From Escherichia phage phi G17, in the sequence record NC_070870.1: DNA of 64,000 nucleotides; one strand, given 5' to 3'. Below, in pieces: positions 51,952 through 59,426 of the stretch. Made by a program: the position numbers and the translations under genes. Within the stretch, counting starts at the first letter, position 1. Every line of letters begins with the position of its first letter. Under the pieces are notes generated by a model. It did no database searches and was not told the DNA's origin. It worked only from the letters and a program-made list of their open reading frames with translations.

Positions 51952-52001
51952 AGCTTCTTTCCTTTAATGAGTTAATTACCACAAGGTGCGGAGCACCCTT
52001 C

Positions 52002-54478: not shown

Positions 54479-54862
54479 TTAGAAAGTCAGTTTACGAGCA
54501 TATTTATTCTCGTCTGCTGGGATGTCAGCAGCCTCTGCTTTCACACGACGAAGTTGAACTTGCAGGTTAATGATACCTTCTTCACCTGGTTCCAGGTTCT
54601 GAGCATATTCGATTAACTGTTCCAGCAAATCGTTCTGTGCACAACGCATAGCACGGAAGTCAGCATTGCTGCTGTTAGTAGGCAGTGCTTCCTGAGTATC
54701 CAGTGGAATACCAGTAGGCAGAGAGATGAACTTCTCTTCTTCAGAGCCTTCGTTAGCAACATAACCAATGTTCAACCAGAACTGAGCCTTAGGCTTAGCA
54801 GCTTTAGTTTCAGTGGTAGCAGCAGCGTTAGATTGACCGAAAGTGAATTTTTGAATAGACAT
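54479..54862 (-). CDS. Hypothetical early protein (127 aa from ATG at 54862; track start 54961 is GTG)
   Basis: GGAGAG upstream of ATG. Confidence 0.45.
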
Positions 54863-54992
54863 TTTGTACTCTCCAGATAAATGATTGTTTGATTTATGGG
54901 TTTGTCTGTCGGTGACTAAACCCAAGAAAAGACTTAAGATTTCAATGATTAGTGGATTCACATGAATCCTTTAGACGCGGAGCGTCTGGTTT

Positions 54993-55286: not shown

Positions 55287-55376
55287 GATTTTCTATCCTT
55301 AAAGTAGATAAATATCTACTTAGACTATCTATCTAATCTTTATAAAAGGAGACTCCGAAGAGCCTCCTATATTGAT

Positions 55377-55700
55377 TTAGTCTTTAGTCAGGATGTCGAT
55401 TACTTTTGAATATTCTGCGTTATAGATACGAGCGTTCTCAGAATCTTTGCAGAATTCTTCGATACTTTTCTTACGCAGAGTTTCGTTCATAGCTGTTTCT
55501 TCAGCTAATTTGTTTACGAATGTATGCATTTCTAATTTAGTACGGATGGCTTGTTTCTCAGCCATAGTAGATACATATGAGTTAAGCATACCAACTGCTT
55601 TAGTAGCTGTGCCGAATGTATCAGCAACAGTAGTAGCAGCAGAGTTAACAGTACCAAGTAAAGTTCCTGCGGTCATACGTACAGTAGCGGTAGTAGTCAT
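55377..55700 (-). CDS. Hypothetical early protein (107 aa)
   Basis: GGAG 8 nt upstream of ATG. Confidence 0.5.
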   Translation of the reverse strand: MTTTATVRMTAGTLLGTVNSAATTVADTFGTATKAVGMLNSYVSTMAEKQAIRTKLEMHTFVNKLAEETAMNETLRKKSIEEFCKDSENARIYNAEYSKVIDILTKD

Positions 55701-55849
55701 GATGATAGCTCCAAGGTTAGATGATAGGACGACATGTCCATAACATGCGGAGCATGTGTAACGTGTAAGGTGGGGTAGGGCAGTGGCTACACGGTCAACA
55801 TACCGGGGGGGATGGTTGAGTGTAAGGGTGTAGCCCCAGCCACACCACT

Positions 55850-55900
55850 ACAGCTATACATAGCTATCAATATTTTGATATGCAAAAATATCATAGCTAT
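55850..55900. promoter_or_regulatory. Candidate operator/promoter element: direct repeats of CATAGCTATC flanking an AT-rich inverted repeat
   Basis: CATAGCTATC-aatattttgatatgcaaaaatat-CATAGCTATC read directly from plus strand; in 205-bp gap between early genes. Confidence 0.35.
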
Positions 55901-55905
55901 CTCAC

Positions 55906-56193
55906 TTATAAGCAGTTAAATAGGAGGTGAGGGGTTTGGTAGCTATCTGTATTCACATGCCACGGGGAGGACATGCTTCCCTCCCACGGGAGTACCTTTC
56001 CTGGTTCAAGTACCCTTACTATAAGTTTCTTACCTGCTATCAGTGCCAAGCCTTGTAACTCATGAAGGGTATCTTCATCGGGGACCAGAACCAGTGTGGC
56101 TTTAGCTAGCTTTAGATCTTGGAAGTCTATCTGTCTTTTTACAGAGTCGGGTCTATACCCTTTAAGAGGAATACGCGTGATAATCATAGTCAT
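55906..56193 (-). CDS. Small early protein, member of the tandem paralog family (95 aa)
   Basis: Shares LVLVPDEDTLHELQGLALIAG core with neighbours. Confidence 0.45.
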   Translation of the reverse strand: MTMIITRIPLKGYRPDSVKRQIDFQDLKLAKATLVLVPDEDTLHELQGLALIAGKKLIVRVLEPGKVLPWEGSMSSPWHVNTDSYQTPHLLFNCL

Positions 56194-56552
56194 ACGCCGT
56201 AGTCTATCTTAACCAATCTGCCTTTGTAGTAGCCAAAGTTCTTGGGAAAGGCATCATATTCGTAGAACTCTCTGGATAACTCACAAGAGTGGTATAGGGA
56301 TTCTAACTCACACCAGAATAACCCCTCATTGTTAACTTTACTGGCTCTAGCCATGACAACCAGTAGGCCAAATCTATTCGAGTAATGGATTGGACATAGA
56401 TGCTTGTCTGGGTAATCTTTCCATTGACCCTCTGTAAGGTTGCTAAGCATACCCTGTACAAAGGTCTTCCATGTCTTGGGGATAGGGAACTTAATAGCAT
56501 ACTTACGTGTTAATAGTACCCATCTGGTTCCACCTGATTTAATCAGTCTCAT
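56190..56552 (-). CDS. Hypothetical early protein (120 aa)
   Basis: ORF. Confidence 0.4.
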   Translation of the reverse strand: MRLIKSGGTRWVLLTRKYAIKFPIPKTWKTFVQGMLSNLTEGQWKDYPDKHLCPIHYSNRFGLLVVMARASKVNNEGLFWCELESLYHSCELSREFYEYDAFPKNFGYYKGRLVKIDYGV

Positions 56553-56756
56553 GGTTTTAGTAACCTCAGTATAAGTTTAAACATTACCAGTTCTATAAGA
56601 TGGTGCTTTGGTGATTATACGGATAGTTCTGAAGGAGTTACCTTCTCTTACCGTACCGGTCGGAAGTACACGGTAACTTTATTCCGGGACATTAAACCCC
56701 AGCGTGGGTTGAATATTTCCTGGGTAGATACCCCTCCTTCAAACATCATGAATAGT

Positions 56757-57071
56757 TTAAGGTTCATACTTCAGTACCTGATTAAGAAGACTATCCATGT
56801 AATAGCAGTATGCCTCGGAGGATTCGTCATTAATAGGAAGACCAATTAAGCCAAAGGTGTATATGCAGAAGTGATTGAGTTCATGAACCAAGGTGATAGG
56901 GTCATTATCTTTTGCATAGATGAGTACCGAACCATTAGGGAGTAGTGAGGTTATACCTTTGCTTCCATCCTCTGGTTCAATGCCTTTAGCCTTCTTATAT
57001 TTCTTAGAGAAGGTAGACCAGTCATGTACTACTTCTAACTGTACTGGATAGGGGGATGTGTTTAGTTTCAT
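56757..57071 (-). CDS. Small early protein, paralog-family member (104 aa)
   Basis: VVHDW...ITLVHELNHF matches family core; the HELNH is more likely the family HE(L/V)xG-type motif than a true metalloprotease HExxH. Confidence 0.45.
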   Translation of the reverse strand: MKLNTSPYPVQLEVVHDWSTFSKKYKKAKGIEPEDGSKGITSLLPNGSVLIYAKDNDPITLVHELNHFCIYTFGLIGLPINDESSEAYCYYMDSLLNQVLKYEP

Positions 57072-57391
57072 TAGATACTCTCGTCGCTAGATAAATATGA
57101 GGTAGAAGGATAAAGGGTAATCAGTCTACCGGTAAGGGTAGTAGCTACCATAGGTTCACAAGTAGATAGGATGTATACACCTTTATTCTTAGGTACTTCG
57201 ACAGGGGTATCTATCTTAATAAAAGTAACTGGTATACCTAACATTAAGCATGTACCAAGGAATTCATCAGCTTCTTGACTAGGTTCATACAGGACTGTAG
57301 TAGTCTTAGCCTTACCGTTGTACCAATCCTGCTTTGTTATGCTGGATAGATAGCAACTATCACTGTAGTTAGCTAAACAATAGAAGTGCAT
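57071..57391 (-). CDS. Small early protein, weak paralog-family member (106 aa)
   Basis: ORF; EPSQEADEFLGTCLMLG weakly matches family core. Confidence 0.4.
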   Translation of the reverse strand: MHFYCLANYSDSCYLSSITKQDWYNGKAKTTTVLYEPSQEADEFLGTCLMLGIPVTFIKIDTPVEVPKNKGVYILSTCEPMVATTLTGRLITLYPSTSYLSSDESI

Positions 57392-57394
57392 AGC

Positions 57395-57709
57395 TTACTT
57401 CCTTACATAGTAGTAACGGTATTCGTCATTCTCATAACGACTATCCCATTGGTATTCATCAGATACCAGCATGTATGGGATAGGATCATTAGCACTGTGG
57501 TTTGTATAGACGGAAGGGGGAACAAGACATACAACCTTACGGTCATTACTTGCCAAGAAGAGTTGACCCCTTACTTCATGGTAATCCTCTAAGGTAGGAA
57601 CCAGGATTACTTGATGTGGGTTACTGTTCATGACCTCTTCTAAAGTGAAGTCAGTTGTGTACATAGACACCCTTTCAGCAAAACTGGGGATGGTCATTAT
57701 AAATTTCAT
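57395..57709 (-). CDS. Small early protein, paralog-family member (104 aa)
   Basis: VILVPTLEDYHEVRGQLFLAS. Confidence 0.45.
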   Translation of the reverse strand: MKFIMTIPSFAERVSMYTTDFTLEEVMNSNPHQVILVPTLEDYHEVRGQLFLASNDRKVVCLVPPSVYTNHSANDPIPYMLVSDEYQWDSRYENDEYRYYYVRK

Positions 57710-58073
57710 GATTGGTTCTCCTTCCTTTAGGAAGAGGTCTGAAGTAAATGGAAAGTGTTTTATTAAAGACGTTATGGTCAGCTATCAATTCCCAACCGTC
57801 TATCTTATAGAAGCGTACACCGGGGAAGAACTCATTGAATCCTATATAGCGGGTAAGGTCATACACCTTTGGTTCAGTAAGTATCTCAGTGTTAAGCTGA
57901 AGGTTGTATAAGAAAAGAGAACCAATAACCTCATGGGACTCTTCGCAGTCAGGTAAGAATACTGATTGCCATGGAGCAATGAACTTACTTACTGCTTCTG
58001 GTTCCCCAAGGTAATAGGGTTCCTGCTTATGAAGTACTCCAGTAATATCAATATCAAAACAGTAGATGCTCAT
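57675..58073 (-). CDS. Small early protein, paralog-family member (132 aa)
   Basis: VFLPDCEESHEVIGSLFLYN; GGAGG upstream of ATG. Confidence 0.45.
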   Translation of the reverse strand: MSIYCFDIDITGVLHKQEPYYLGEPEAVSKFIAPWQSVFLPDCEESHEVIGSLFLYNLQLNTEILTEPKVYDLTRYIGFNEFFPGVRFYKIDGWELIADHNVFNKTLSIYFRPLPKGRRTNHEIYNDHPQFC

Positions 58074-58087
58074 AATTGCATACCTCC

Positions 58088-58125
58088 AGAAAAAGAAATG
58101 GGGTAGAGCCTCTCGACTCTACCCC
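58088..58125 (-). terminator. Intrinsic terminator (minus strand) GGGGTAGAG-8 nt loop-CTCTACCCC + ATTTCTTTTTCT
   Basis: 9-bp stem and T-rich tract directly before the RBS of the next gene. Confidence 0.55.
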
Positions 58126-58161
58126 TTACCGTTTTCAATCACGGGTCAGTTCATCCCCCTA

Positions 58162-58269
58162 GGTACTTATGTACCGTTAGACCAACTGGGTTGGCAAAGG
58201 AGCCGGGGAACCCTGACTGTAGAAGTTATTAACTCTTTACGAGTACCGCCACTGTCTACTAGGCGGTAT
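58162..58269. promoter_or_regulatory. Cluster of three short hairpins in early-region gap (GGTAC-ttat-GTACC, CCAAC-tgg-GTTGG, TACCGCC-12 nt-GGCGGTA); candidate promoter/regulatory hairpins
   Basis: Read directly; 5-7 bp stems with 3-4 nt loops, the architecture reported for single-strand hairpin promoters of N4-type virion RNAP, but no consensus could be verified. Confidence 0.3.
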
Positions 58270-58275
58270 GACTAA

Positions 58276-58593
58276 TCACATCGTCACCGTCATCCGAACG
58301 CTATCGTTGCTTCGTTTGATGGAGACACTATGAGGTAATTTTGTGAAGAACACAAGAGATGAAACAGACTTTTCTAAAGAGTAAGTTTCTTGTGGTTCTA
58401 AGATGGTAACACCGGGACGATTCTCTAATAACATCATTCCAGATAACTCATGGAAAGAATCCCAGTCATGGGTAACAACTATGTCACCCTTCATTAAGCC
58501 AGCCTTGGTGTGGCTTACTTCAAAGTATTTGTCTCCGGAGTCTTGGACTCTCATAAAGATTCTCAAGGGGTACTCCTTGGGGAATAAGGTCAT
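58276..58593 (-). CDS. First minus-strand early gene, paralog-family member (105 aa)
   Basis: IVVTHDWDSFHELSGMMLLEN. Confidence 0.45.
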   Translation of the reverse strand: MTLFPKEYPLRIFMRVQDSGDKYFEVSHTKAGLMKGDIVVTHDWDSFHELSGMMLLENRPGVTILEPQETYSLEKSVSSLVFFTKLPHSVSIKRSNDSVRMTVTM

Positions 58594-58736
58594 CGGAACA
58601 TTACATACTATTTAGTATCATGAACTTTTTCTATATCATGACTAAAGTGTAACTGTGTGGTAGAGTTTCTTCAAGGGGTATCTCACCCCAAGAAAAGAAT
58701 CTTCGTTAATAGACATAACTTTGTAGAGAGATAAGT

Positions 58737-59426
58737 ATGAGTGAACTAACTAAGCAGCAGATTGTTAATGCCTTACCTGCTAACTTCAAGAACAGTGTGA
58801 GCCAAGAGTTGGTAGACACGATTAACAACGTAACCCAGGACCAATTGGTTGCTGAGGCATTTCGTGAAAACTTCATCTCTTACTCTGGTGTCATGAAGGA
58901 AGGCAAGTTTAAGACACAGGACTACATGAATGCAGTTCAGTATGTAACTTACAAACACATGGGCTACTCGAATAAGGAAGCCTACTTCAAGACATTCCCC
59001 AACCGACAAGCAGAACTAGTAGCACGAGGAACCAGTGAGAAAGATATTAGTGCTTACGTATCTGCTTATCACAGAGGTAAGTTAGTTAACCTAATCATGG
59101 AACAAAGTTTGGTTCCAGTGTGGATTGTGAACCAAGACAATTATCAGAAGGCAATCAACGTACAGGTTGAACTAATGAATACGGCTGTTAGTGAGAAGGT
59201 TCGTTGCGATGCAGCTAACTCTATCCTTACTCACTTAGCTAAACCAAAAGATCAGGTAACGAATATCAATCTGGACTTGAGAGAGAACTCCGGGTTGACT
59301 GACCTCAAGGCAACACTTGCTGCATTGGCTGAACAGCAAATTAGTGCAATCAATAGTGGTGTACCTACTAAAGAGATTGCTGGTTCTAAACTCGTACGTG
59401 CAGATGAGGACATTACAGATGTCTGA
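58737..59426 (+). CDS. First gene of plus-strand late block (229 aa), possibly terminase small subunit or packaging accessory
   Basis: GAGAG upstream of ATG; stop overlaps terminase start (ATGTCTGA). Confidence 0.4.
   Translation: MSELTKQQIVNALPANFKNSVSQELVDTINNVTQDQLVAEAFRENFISYSGVMKEGKFKTQDYMNAVQYVTYKHMGYSNKEAYFKTFPNRQAELVARGTSEKDISAYVSAYHRGKLVNLIMEQSLVPVWIVNQDNYQKAINVQVELMNTAVSEKVRCDAANSILTHLAKPKDQVTNINLDLRENSGLTDLKATLAALAEQQISAINSGVPTKEIAGSKLVRADEDITDV

What the first reader, a model, noticed from the sequence alone, without database searches (positions are those of the whole stretch)
55906..58593. Tandem array of paralogous small early genes sharing a conserved core
At least five adjacent about-100-aa ORFs share the core pattern hydrophobic-LVP-x-(D/E)(D/E)-x-HE(L/V)-x-G-x-L-x-L: FHELSG, SHEVIG, YHEVRG, LHELQG and VHELNH. 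Local tandem duplication and divergence of early genes is a hallmark of host-interaction/arms-race loci. The function is unknown.
Basis: seen in the sequence. Interest (0 to 1): 0.6.

Follow-up and report, generated by a model that had tools for sequence, protein, structure and literature searches.

The report
Right-end paralog array of N4-like phage

Summary
The window is an N4-like coliphage (Gamaleyavirus, essentially phi G17). On the minus strand, 55906-58593 holds seven small genes, A to G. A, B, C and G carry the beta-strand/acidic turn/HE(L/V)xG core. They are significantly related (profile-profile E 1e-5 to 5e-8). They are orthologues of N4 gp70/gp71 and G7C gp70, gp71 and gp71.1. All seven genes are under purifying selection, so they are real genes, but they change 5-30 times faster at the protein level than the neighbouring core genes.

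The family is ancient. It occupies the same place, after terminase gp69 and before the terminal repeat, in phages of Escherichia, Shigella, Achromobacter and Pseudomonas putida.

"Early" is not supported. The array is the last DNA to enter the cell, and it has no N4-type hairpin promoter.

H and E are replaced in many members, so the motif is a structural core and not an active site. The AlphaFold model (pLDDT 87) only weakly resembles helicase RecA2 domains. Function remains unknown; my best guess is a set of diversifying binding proteins.

Between A and B lies a covarying, pseudoknotted RNA of about 190 nt that ends in a terminator. It matches no Rfam family.

The parts
58567..58736 (.). Divergent intergenic region between terminase small subunit gp69 (+ strand, starts 58737) and gene A. 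It is nearly invariant among Gamaleyaviruses. The motif GTTACACTTTAG at 58640-58652 (minus strand) is shared, as TTAG(A/C)CTTTAG, with N4, JWDelta and Zuri directly upstream of the first array gene. Presumed promoter or control region.
58276..58566 (-). Gene A, 96 aa from TTG 58566 (the ORF list gives ATG 58593, 105 aa). It is the orthologue of N4 gp70 / G7C gp70, belongs to phrog_7213, has core ...DIVVTHDWDSFHELSGMMLLENRPG..., and is a family member.
58087..58275 (-). Conserved structured non-coding RNA element between A and B. It has eight helices plus a pseudoknot (P1 loop GUAGA with downstream UCUAC). Its last hairpin is the intrinsic terminator.
   Evidence: no Rfam match
58100..58125 (-). 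Intrinsic terminator hairpin GGGGTAGAGTCGAGAGGCTCTACCCC followed by ATTTCTTTTT, about 15 nt before the ribosome-binding site of B.
   Evidence: the same arrangement is annotated in JWDelta
57675..58073 (-). Gene B, 132 aa. It is the orthologue of N4 gp71 / G7C gp71, belongs to phrog_9160, has core ...SVFLPDCEESHEVIGSLFLYN..., and is a family member.
57395..57709 (-). Gene C, 104 aa, overlapping the end of B by 35 nt. It is the orthologue of G7C gp71.1, belongs to phrog_11661, has core ...VILVPTLEDYHEVRGQLFLAS..., and is a family member.
57071..57391 (-). Gene D, 106 aa.
56757..57071 (-). Gene E, 104 aa, phrog_1365, contains HExxH (LVHELNHF). It is not a family member; the shared 'HEL' is coincidental.
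56190..56552 (-). Gene F, 120 aa, phrog_4301, basic (pI 9.4). It is not a family member.
55906..56193 (-). Gene G, 95 aa, phrog_16338, with core ...LVLVPDEDTLHELQGLALIAGKK.... It is a family member and carries a 10-aa in-frame deletion relative to its orthologues.
55442..55843 (.). Region homologous (92%) to the 403-bp direct terminal repeat of Mimir124, marking the physical genome ends. It contains the first N4-type hairpin promoter (centre 55750) and the 5' part of gp1. It bounds the array on its downstream side.

Best explanation
This is the right-terminal accessory module of an N4-like phage genome. It encodes four certain members (A, B, C, G) and one probable member (D) of a single ancient family of 90-130-aa, single-domain, soluble alpha/beta proteins whose prototypes are N4 gp70 and gp71. 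Two unrelated small genes (E, F) are interspersed. These points are shown. The shared pattern, a hydrophobic strand ending in Pro, an acidic turn, HE(L/V)xG and then hydrophobic residues, is the junction between the third strand and the only helix of the fold. It is a structural core and not a catalytic site: only the Gly is universal across the wider family, and H and/or E are replaced in N4 gp70 (HY), N4 gp71 (HA), the D type, the phrog_12606 type and the Achromobacter and Pseudomonas relatives. The rest is inferred. The proteins are most likely non-enzymatic binding modules built on one scaffold, with paralog-specific C-terminal halves. Each would bind a different host or phage macromolecule once the right end of the genome has entered the cell, which makes them middle-phase rather than early. 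Transcription would start in the ultra-conserved gp69-A spacer. A would be made first. The conserved pseudoknotted RNA with its terminator would then limit or regulate read-through into B-G.
For: Paralogy rests. No further member lies elsewhere in the window. The genes are real and fast-evolving: dN/dS is mostly 0.11-0.54 and dN 0.03-0.6, against gp69 at dN 0.006-0.017 and omega 0.03-0.05. In the 12 Gamaleyavirus loci examined (11 genomes, since L001 and L008 are both G7C), the A-B-C-D core is constant (D is split by a frameshift in L009). The distal part varies, drawing on the 12606 types, the M76/G type, E and F. A natural chimera, P0141, joins the N-terminal half of A to the C-terminal half of G exactly at the motif. 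Motif residues are replaced in clear relatives. A4 is the alignment of family homologues returned by the protein searches. In it only H, E, G and one Pro are nearly invariant, and in the wider family only G survives. The AlphaFold model of A has pLDDT 86.6 and pTM 0.75, with eight strands and one helix that carries the HE..G. The G model shows the same strand-helix-strand core. The proteins have no enzyme, defence or other family hit in Pfam, NCBIfam, PADLOC or PDB sequences. They show no charge extreme and are hydrophilic on average. The same fold and position recur in other N4-like genera. The position at the right end and the absence of hairpin promoters rest, with PMC4496689. In LUZ7, transcripts captured mid-infection cover the rightmost ORFan cluster. 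The RNA element and terminator rest.
Against: No partner, phenotype or expression datum exists for any member, so 'binding module' is argued by exclusion. H and E are more than 90% conserved within the Enquatrovirinae members, so a function for them in that clade cannot be excluded. The A and B types persist in phages of Escherichia, Shigella and Achromobacter, which fits a conserved phage-internal or universal target better than a host-specific arms race. Average dN/dS is below 1, and site-wise positive selection was not tested. The promoter and temporal class are inferred from position and from a different phage, LUZ7, whose right-end genes are not homologous.
Confidence: 0.45

Rival explanations
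1. The family serves a phage-internal function at the genome end. Its members would be regulators or accessory factors of middle or late transcription, replication of the terminal repeats, or packaging, rather than host-targeting proteins. In particular, A could be an RNA-binding factor acting on the structured RNA immediately downstream of its own gene to control termination before B-G.
For: The array abuts the terminase genes gp69/gp68 and the terminal repeat. The A-B-C-D core is syntenic in all Gamaleyaviruses examined. A- and B-types are retained in phages of unrelated hosts. The RNA element was found in all six lineages that have a clear A-type gene, always directly after it. It was not found in Zuri, LUZ7 or LIT1. 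The weak fold resemblance is to helicase RecA2 domains, which bind nucleic acid. The LUZ7 authors suggest a replication-related role for that phage's right-end cluster.
Against: N4 manages with two members while Moo19 has seven. Distal members come and go. Protein divergence is far higher than for core genes. The proteins are neutral to acidic and not basic. No nucleic-acid-binding family matched.
Confidence: 0.3
2. The proteins are small enzymes that use the conserved His-Glu pair (with the preceding Asp/Glu) as a catalytic or metal-binding site.
For: H and E are more than 90% conserved in the A4 alignment of family homologues, and acidic residues precede them. They sit at a strand-to-helix junction, a common ligand site in alpha/beta folds.
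Against: H and/or E are replaced in bona fide relatives: N4 gp70 HY, N4 gp71 HA, Moonfish gp76 YE, D type DE, phrog_12606 types, and most Achromobacter and Zuri members. No enzyme family matched by sequence, and none matched convincingly by fold.
Confidence: 0.1
3. One reading: these are early genes, expressed immediately on infection, that neutralise host defences.
For: The genes are small, fast-evolving and of unknown function, and their content varies between genomes. They have the same polarity as the early and middle genes.
Against: They lie on the last-entering end of the genome. No vRNAP hairpin promoter precedes them, whereas three are found at the left end. They had no match to defence-system protein models; PADLOC holds models of defence proteins, not of anti-defence proteins, so this null is weak.
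Confidence: 0.1
4. The shared motif is a chance resemblance, or the ORFs are non-coding.
For: Pairwise identities are low at 18-34%. One of the five motif instances, E, is indeed coincidental.
Against: Profile-profile E-values are 1e-5 to 5e-8 against controls of 0.06-0.9. All four HE[LVI]xG instances in 64 kb fall in this array. There is purifying selection and conservation in hundreds of phage contigs. The two models show a consistent fold.
Confidence: 0.02

Closest known systems
Escherichia phage N4 gp70 (YP_950548) and gp71 (YP_950549); G7C gp70, gp71, gp71.1, gp71.2
   Same: They are direct orthologues of A, B, C and D. They have the same position after gp69, the same orientation, and the same A / long spacer / B layout.
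   Different: Nothing is known about their function, and all are annotated 'hypothetical'. PHROGs splits them into six unlinked families (7213, 9160, 11661, 12099, 16338, 12606). N4 has only two members, the window has five, and Moo19 has seven.
Pseudomonas phage LUZ7 right-end cluster of 29 small ORFans (gp87-gp115)
   Same: It occupies the same genomic slot, immediately after the gp69-like gene and running to the right end. It is also a tandem array of small paralogs of unknown function. Transcripts captured mid-infection cover it.
   Different: It is an unrelated sequence family of about 65 aa with a shared ..KY.KE.. motif. None of the 34 LUZ7 and LIT1 right-end proteins scores against the gp70/71 profile, with a best E of 0.2.
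C-terminal RecA-like domain (RecA2) of SF2 / DEAD-box helicases
   Different: Z lies at the margin of significance. The family has one helix and eight strands in 96 residues, against about 150 residues and several helices in RecA2. No Helicase_C match or helicase motifs were found. This is a resemblance, not membership.
Terminator-containing cis-regulatory leader RNAs (riboswitches, protein-dependent attenuators, HK022 put-type elements), compared only with the A-B spacer
   Same: The spacer is a structured, covarying, pseudoknotted RNA that ends in an intrinsic terminator placed about 15 nt before the ribosome-binding site of the next gene.
   Different: It matched none of the 4227 Rfam families. 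No ligand or protein partner is known, and no conserved alternative (antiterminator) pairing was found. It could equally be a stable 3'UTR or an sRNA.

Membership tests
N4 gp70/gp71 family (PHROGs 7213, 9160, 11661, 16338; probably also 12099 and 12606) | Significant sequence relationship to the orthologous PHROG and to the other subfamilies | tested here: met
   A, B, C and G hit their PHROGs at 1e-27 to 1e-64, with cross-hits C to 16338 and G to 7213. hhalign between subfamilies gives 1e-5 to 5e-8. D reaches only 6.5e-4 to 2.8e-3.
N4 gp70/gp71 family | Position: a rightward-transcribed array between the gp69 (terminase small subunit) gene and the right terminal repeat | tested here: met
N4 gp70/gp71 family, membership of ORF E (VHELNH) | Core strand-Pro / acidic turn / (H)(E)xxG in register, with profile similarity above the controls | tested here: not met
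   E lacks the Pro, the acidic turn and the Gly. hhalign E-values of 0.057-0.13 equal those of the controls F, gp1 and I. E belongs to a different PHROG, 1365.
N4 early gene class | Preceded by a vRNAP hairpin promoter (5-7 bp stem, 3-nt loop) and located at the left, first-injected genome end | tested here: not met
   Hairpins of the type stem-TCC-stem occur only at 55750, 54980 and 51991. The array maps to the right end. The rule comes from PMC4496689. Actual timing is not testable here.
SF2 helicase RecA2 domain | Helicase motifs IV-VI or a Pfam Helicase_C match, with a full RecA-like alpha/beta sandwich | tested here: not met
Zinc metallopeptidase (HExxH), for ORF E only | HExxH plus a third ligand within a recognisable metallopeptidase fold or family | tested here: inconclusive
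   HELNH is present. There is no Pfam, NCBIfam or PDB match. No structure was predicted.
Cupin (considered from sequence patterns such as ...IPYGDYAHVF in phrog_12606 members) | Double-stranded beta-helix without an intervening long helix | tested here: not met
Any Rfam family (for the A-B spacer RNA) | Covariance-model match | tested here: not met
   cmscan of 55300-58900 on both strands, E<=1, gave 0 matches.
Transcription-attenuating leader / riboswitch (for the A-B spacer RNA) | Conserved structured domain with covariation, an intrinsic terminator just upstream of the regulated ORF, and mutually exclusive antiterminator pairing responsive to a ligand or protein | tested here: inconclusive
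   The first two features are met. A candidate alternative pairing (UCUAC with GUAGA in the 5' arm of the terminator) exists in the window and in N4 but not in Moo19 or Axy13 (read). The ligand is not testable here.

The most novel reading that the evidence does not exclude
The right end of Enquatrovirinae and Rothmandenesvirinae genomes would be one regulated module. A new class of pseudoknotted RNA, always placed directly after the gp70-type gene and ending in a terminator, would act as a switch that gates transcription into a diversifying set of gp71-like paralogs. The switch might respond to the RecA2-like gp70 protein itself, or to a metabolite or an RNA polymerase. The paralogs would be host- or defence-targeting binders built on a helicase-domain-like scaffold.
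Probability: 0.2. Interest if true: 0.7.

Novelty: new member of a known kind. Interest (0 to 1): 0.45.

Why it matters
N4-like phages (Schitoviridae) are abundant, are used in phage therapy, and are a classic model of phage transcription. Yet the genes beyond the terminase at the right end have no assigned role. Showing that six separately catalogued 'hypothetical' PHROGs are one ancient family, present in 2-7 copies per genome across several genera, gives a defined and compact target set for deletion, toxicity and interaction screens. It also corrects the expectation that these are early genes. The structured RNA between gp70 and gp71 is conserved more strongly than the surrounding genes, with compensatory changes and a covarying pseudoknot. 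It is a concrete candidate for a new phage riboregulator. It also offers a direct handle on how the array is expressed.

Tried and rejected
1. I read the HE pair as catalytic. Rejected because both residues are replaced in clear relatives.

2. I suspected a cupin fold from sequence patterns in phrog_12606 members. Rejected by both AlphaFold models.

3. I tested E as a fifth paralog, or as a chimera with the N-terminus of A ('VVHDWSTF' against 'VVTHDWDSF'). Only 9 aligned columns resulted, at E 0.058, which is not significant.

4. Pfam, NCBIfam, PADLOC, PDB-sequence and PDB-profile searches of all seven proteins found nothing meaningful.

5. An exhaustive HMMER search of 1.84 billion representative proteins returned only 10 clusters, all from the same coliphage arrays, with no fusions or distant homologues to give functional hints.

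6. I read F as a mini protein kinase by eye. No database supports this.

7. A degenerate DNA pattern for the RNA's first hairpin, scanned over IMG/VR, returned 30 unrelated contigs, and none matched the covariance model.

8. I considered an antiterminator model in which UCUAC pairs alternatively with the 5' arm of the terminator. Moo19 and Axy13 do not preserve it.

9. I asked whether the motif upstream of A is a general middle promoter. It is unique in the window.

10. Literature searches for N4 gp70/gp71, right-end paralogs and Schitoviridae non-coding RNAs found no description.

11. The sigma-70 consensus scan found no promoter upstream of A or B, so the promoter type is unresolved.
Full report
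**What the window is.** The region matches N4-like coliphages of the genus Gamaleyavirus (G7C, IME11, Moonfish and others) at 86-89% nucleotide identity. Gene A is 100% identical to PP764_gp75 of Escherichia phage phi G17. Gene G is 100% identical to a phi G17 protein in BFVD. The window is therefore essentially phi G17. The terminase genes gp69 and gp68 run on the + strand from 58737. The flagged ORFs run on the - strand away from them.

**The ORFs.** I label the minus-strand ORFs A to G:
- A, 58276-58593
- B, 57675-58073
- C, 57395-57709
- D, 57071-57391
- E, 56757-57071
- F, 56190-56552
- G, 55906-56193

Next come gp1 (55377-55700) and gp2 (54479-54961). G7C annotates the homologues of A-D as gp70, gp71, gp71.1 and gp71.2, followed by the region containing the terminal repeat. 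N4 has gp70, gp71 and a tiny gp72.

**Checking the observation.** HE[LVI]xG occurs four times in the six-frame translation of all 64 kb, each time in A, B, C or G. BLASTP already links B-C (8e-6) and C-G (8e-4). I built separate ortholog alignments for each type from database hits and related loci and compared them with hhalign:
- B-C 1.2e-5, C-G 7.9e-6 and C-M76 2.2e-7. M76 is the Moonfish gp76-type branch of G.
- A-G first scored 1.7e-19. That value was inflated by P0141, a natural chimera with the N-terminal half of A fused to the C-terminal half of G exactly at ...TLHELQG....
- Without P0141, A-G is 9.2e-8 and A-M76 is 5.4e-8.
- Negative controls (E, F, gp1, ORF I, gp2 against each other and against the family) give E 0.004-0.9 and probabilities of at most 8%. 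The single low outlier is B against I at 0.0041.

The paralogy of A, B, C and G is therefore real.

It has no Pro, acidic turn or Gly, and it sits in another PHROG (1365). Against the merged family it scores 0.057-0.13, which is indistinguishable from F (0.06-0.16) and I (0.1-0.23).

It aligns in register over about 70 columns at E 2.8e-3, or 6.5e-4 when the Moo19 orthologue is added; that orthologue actually reads AHEFIG. D also shares a C-terminal ...LYPS.SYL... tail with many G-type proteins. I count D as probable, not proven. The phrog_12606 type, found in other genomes but absent here, reaches 1.2e-4.

**Are they genes?** Pairwise Nei-Gojobori dN/dS against orthologues in up to 12 related genomes is 0.11-0.54 for all seven ORFs. 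The exception is the closest A pair (dS 0.034), which gives 0.92. The sequence shows Shine-Dalgarno motifs or coupled stop/start overlaps (D/E TAATG, F/G ATGA). A is preceded by AAGGAG 6 nt before TTG 58566. All orthologues are 92-96 aa, so 58566 is the likely start. These are real genes.

They evolve much faster than their neighbours. For the same genome pairs, gp69 has dN 0.006-0.017 (omega 0.03-0.05) and gp1 has omega of at most 0.13. The array genes have dN 0.03-0.6.

**Extent of the family.**
- A profile of the five window proteins, searched against 5.8 billion proteins, found 673 hits. Those listed with long contigs were almost all on phage-sized contigs of about 70 kb, and none had a Pfam domain.
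- An exhaustive HMMER search of 1.84 billion representatives found only 10 clusters, all of these same types.
- An iterative local HMM search of related loci found 4-7 members per Gamaleyavirus genome and two in N4, always inside the array and never in the flanks. No further member lies elsewhere in this window.
- The architecture is a constant A-B-C-D core (D is split by a frameshift in L009) followed by a variable distal set drawn from the 12606 types, M76/G, E and F. Moo19 has seven members.

**More distant relatives, by structure and sequence.**
- Foldseek of the G model against BFVD returned, after the coliphage orthologues, almost exclusively uncharacterised proteins of other N4-like phages. 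These were Achromobacter JWAlpha, JWDelta and the Axy series, Pseudomonas putida phage Zuri (four paralogs) and Klebsiella KP8 (probabilities 0.8-1.0).
- I fetched the right ends of Zuri, JWDelta, Axy12 and Axy13. Each has a rightward array of small genes between the gp69 region and the terminal repeat.
- The proteins in those arrays show the same strand / acidic turn / xxxG / hydrophobic pattern.
- Against a background of 717 ORFs, a core HMM built only from coliphage A, B, C and G types hits JWD_84, Axy12_079, Axy13_071, JWD_87, Axy12_078 and Axy12_080 at 1.4e-4 to 7e-3.
- None of the 34 right-end proteins of LUZ7 and LIT1 scores better than 0.2.

The family therefore predates the split of Enquatrovirinae and Rothmandenesvirinae. 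The duplication is ancient, not a recent local expansion.

**Fold and the meaning of the motif.**
- The AlphaFold2 model of G, from a 55-sequence family alignment, is mediocre (pLDDT 66.7) but places LVLVP in a strand and EDTLHELQGLALIA in a helix.
- The model of A, from a 124-sequence alignment, is good (pLDDT 86.6, pTM 0.75). It has strands 2-6, 14-18 and 29-31, a helix at 35-47, and then five more strands.
- Within the coliphage members, H, E, G and a Pro are more than 90% conserved. H and/or E are nevertheless replaced in N4 gp70 (FHYISG), N4 gp71 (THALLG), Moonfish gp76 (LYELQG), the D type (ADEFLG), the phrog_12606 types and most Achromobacter and Zuri members. Only the Gly persists throughout. 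The motif is therefore best read as the structural strand-helix junction, not as an active site.
- The proteins are soluble and neutral to mildly acidic.

**Are they early genes?**
- The annotated 403-bp direct terminal repeat of Mimir124 maps at 92% identity to window 55843-55442. In the packaged linear genome, the array is therefore the unique right-end segment, followed by the right repeat copy. Gene gp1 begins the left end.
- A scan for perfect hairpins with 3-nt loops finds three N4-type early-promoter candidates on the coding strand: ACATGC-TCC-GCATGT at 55750, AGACGC-TCC-GCGTCT at 54980 and GGTGC-TCC-GCACC at 51991. All are at the left end, and none is upstream of A-G.
- According to Lenneman and Rothman-Denes, vRNAP promoters are constrained to the left end, which is injected first, and late transcripts run leftward (PMC4496689).
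- The only relevant transcript data I found are for LUZ7, where transcripts captured mid-infection cover the rightmost cluster of 29 small ORFans (PMC9163698). That cluster occupies the same slot but belongs to an unrelated family.

I therefore consider 'early' unsupported and middle-phase expression most likely. This is inferred, not shown.

**Control regions.** The gp69-A spacer (58567-58736) is almost invariant among Gamaleyaviruses. It shares blocks, including TTAG(A/C)CTTTAG, with N4, JWDelta and Zuri. The motif is unique in the window. No sigma-70 consensus promoter was found upstream of A or B.

**The A-B spacer is a structured RNA.** A strong intrinsic terminator lies at 58125-58100, and JWDelta has one annotated at the same place. 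The whole A-B spacer turned out to be a conserved structured RNA:
- It is 92-97% identical across 54 Gamaleyavirus records, which is more conserved than the flanking genes. Those records annotate it as nothing or only as 'terminator'.
- It folds with z = -4.05 against shuffled sequences.
- RNAalifold predicts 47 pairs.
- A covariance model built from coliphage sequences finds full-length matches in Moo19, N4, Axy13, Axy12 and JWDelta (E 3e-36 to 6e-12). Each match is directly after the A-type gene. There is no match in Zuri, LUZ7, LIT1 or 30 unrelated contigs.
- On the 14-sequence alignment, 96.4% of cells pair and 31 of 47 pairs show compensatory changes. None of 500 shuffles reaches these values, and slid controls give 37-45% paired. 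One caveat applies: the alignment was fitted to the model.
- A pseudoknot that was not in the model also covaries. The P1 loop GUAGA pairs with the downstream UCUAC. The equivalent pairs are GGAGU:ACUUC in N4, GCGGA:UCCGC in Axy13 and GUGG:CCAC in Moo19.
- Rfam has no match, and I found no description in the literature held.

The terminator ends about 15 nt before B's ribosome-binding site, which is the layout of an attenuator or riboswitch leader. I could not find a conserved antiterminator alternative. A stable 3'UTR or an sRNA is equally possible.

**Mechanism.** What is shown is as follows:
- There is one ancient family, with four members certain and one probable.
- They are real, fast-evolving genes.
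- They sit at the right end of the genome.
- They share a structural core.
- There is no enzyme signature.
- Distal gene content varies between genomes, and a recombinant exists.
- A structured RNA with a terminator lies between A and the rest.

What I infer, at about 0.45 confidence, is that the proteins are non-enzymatic binders on a common scaffold. They would be expressed in mid-infection, with B-G expression limited or regulated by the RNA and terminator.

The main rival, at about 0.3, is a phage-internal role in transcription, replication or packaging. This includes the attractive but untested idea that A acts on the RNA next to it; the two co-occur in all six lineages examined. Catalysis through the His-Glu pair (0.1) and true early anti-defence genes (0.1) are less likely. 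Chance or non-coding ORFs are excluded for A, B, C and G.

**Novelty and score.** The genes are already in databases as hypothetical proteins, split over six PHROGs. Recognising them as one Schitoviridae-wide family is new but ordinary in kind: a multi-copy accessory family at a phage genome end, comparable in position to the LUZ7 cluster. The unexpected element is the RNA. Overall interest is 0.45.

Noticed in passing
window 58087-58275 (minus strand): A conserved RNA of about 190 nt lies between genes A and B. It has eight covarying helices, a covarying pseudoknot and a terminal intrinsic terminator. It is present directly after the gp70-type gene in Gamaleyavirus, Moo19, N4 and three Achromobacter phage genera. 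It has no Rfam family and no annotation beyond 'terminator'.
   Followed up: yes
window 58567-58736: The spacer between gp69 and A is almost invariant among Gamaleyaviruses. It shares blocks (TTAG(A/C)CTTTAG, and a GGGGT...ACCCC hairpin flanked by TTCTT/AAGAA) with N4, JWDelta and Zuri. In this region N4 and the Achromobacter phage JWDelta are nearly identical over about 70 nt, although their proteins have diverged far more. It is likely a divergent promoter or control region. The motif is unique in the window.
   Followed up: partly
L018 8699-14346 (Pseudomonas phage LUZ7 68698-74345): LUZ7 carries 29 tandem small genes (gp87-gp115, about 55-75 aa) in the same slot after its gp69-like gene. 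Many share a ...L..KY.KE... motif, so this is a second, unrelated paralog expansion. The right end of Schitoviridae genomes appears to be a general site for such arrays.
   Followed up: partly
window 56190-56552 (minus strand), gene F: This 120-aa basic protein (phrog_4301) reads, by eye, like a minimal protein-kinase core (YAIKFP ... DAFPKN ... LVKIDYG). No Pfam, NCBIfam or PDB sequence match supports this. Among the loci examined it is present only here and in Moonfish.
   Followed up: partly
window 56757-57071 (minus strand), gene E: This small protein has an HExxH motif (LVHELNHF) and belongs to phrog_1365. Its N-terminal 'QLEVVHDWSTF' resembles 'DIVVTHDWDSF' of this phage's gene A, but the similarity is not significant (E 0.05).
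   Followed up: partly
protein P0141 (JGI metagenome contig, 42.5 kb): This is a natural chimera. The N-terminal half of a gp70-type (A) protein is fused to the C-terminal half of a G-type protein, and the joint falls exactly at the conserved ...HELQG... motif. Paralogs therefore recombine at the shared core.
   Followed up: partly
window 55743-55757, 54973-54987, 51985-51997 (minus strand): Three hairpins with a GC-TCC-GC core, 5-6 bp stems and 3-nt loops lie upstream of gp1, upstream of gp2 and further into the left-end region. They look like the three N4-type virion-RNAP early promoters of this phage.
   Followed up: partly
window 56553-56756: A spacer of about 205 nt separates E and F, whereas in Moonfish the two genes overlap. 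It contains a TATAAT hexamer. Its origin and role are unknown.
   Followed up: no
window 55906-56193, gene G: G has a 10-aa in-frame deletion near its C-terminus relative to all orthologues (...TDSY----------QTPHLLFNCL).
   Followed up: no
proteins P0225 and P0257: Two gp70-type proteins are recorded on a 2.76-Mb contig labelled Enterococcus faecium. This is most likely an assembly or contamination artefact, given that every other hit is on an N4-like coliphage contig.
   Followed up: no
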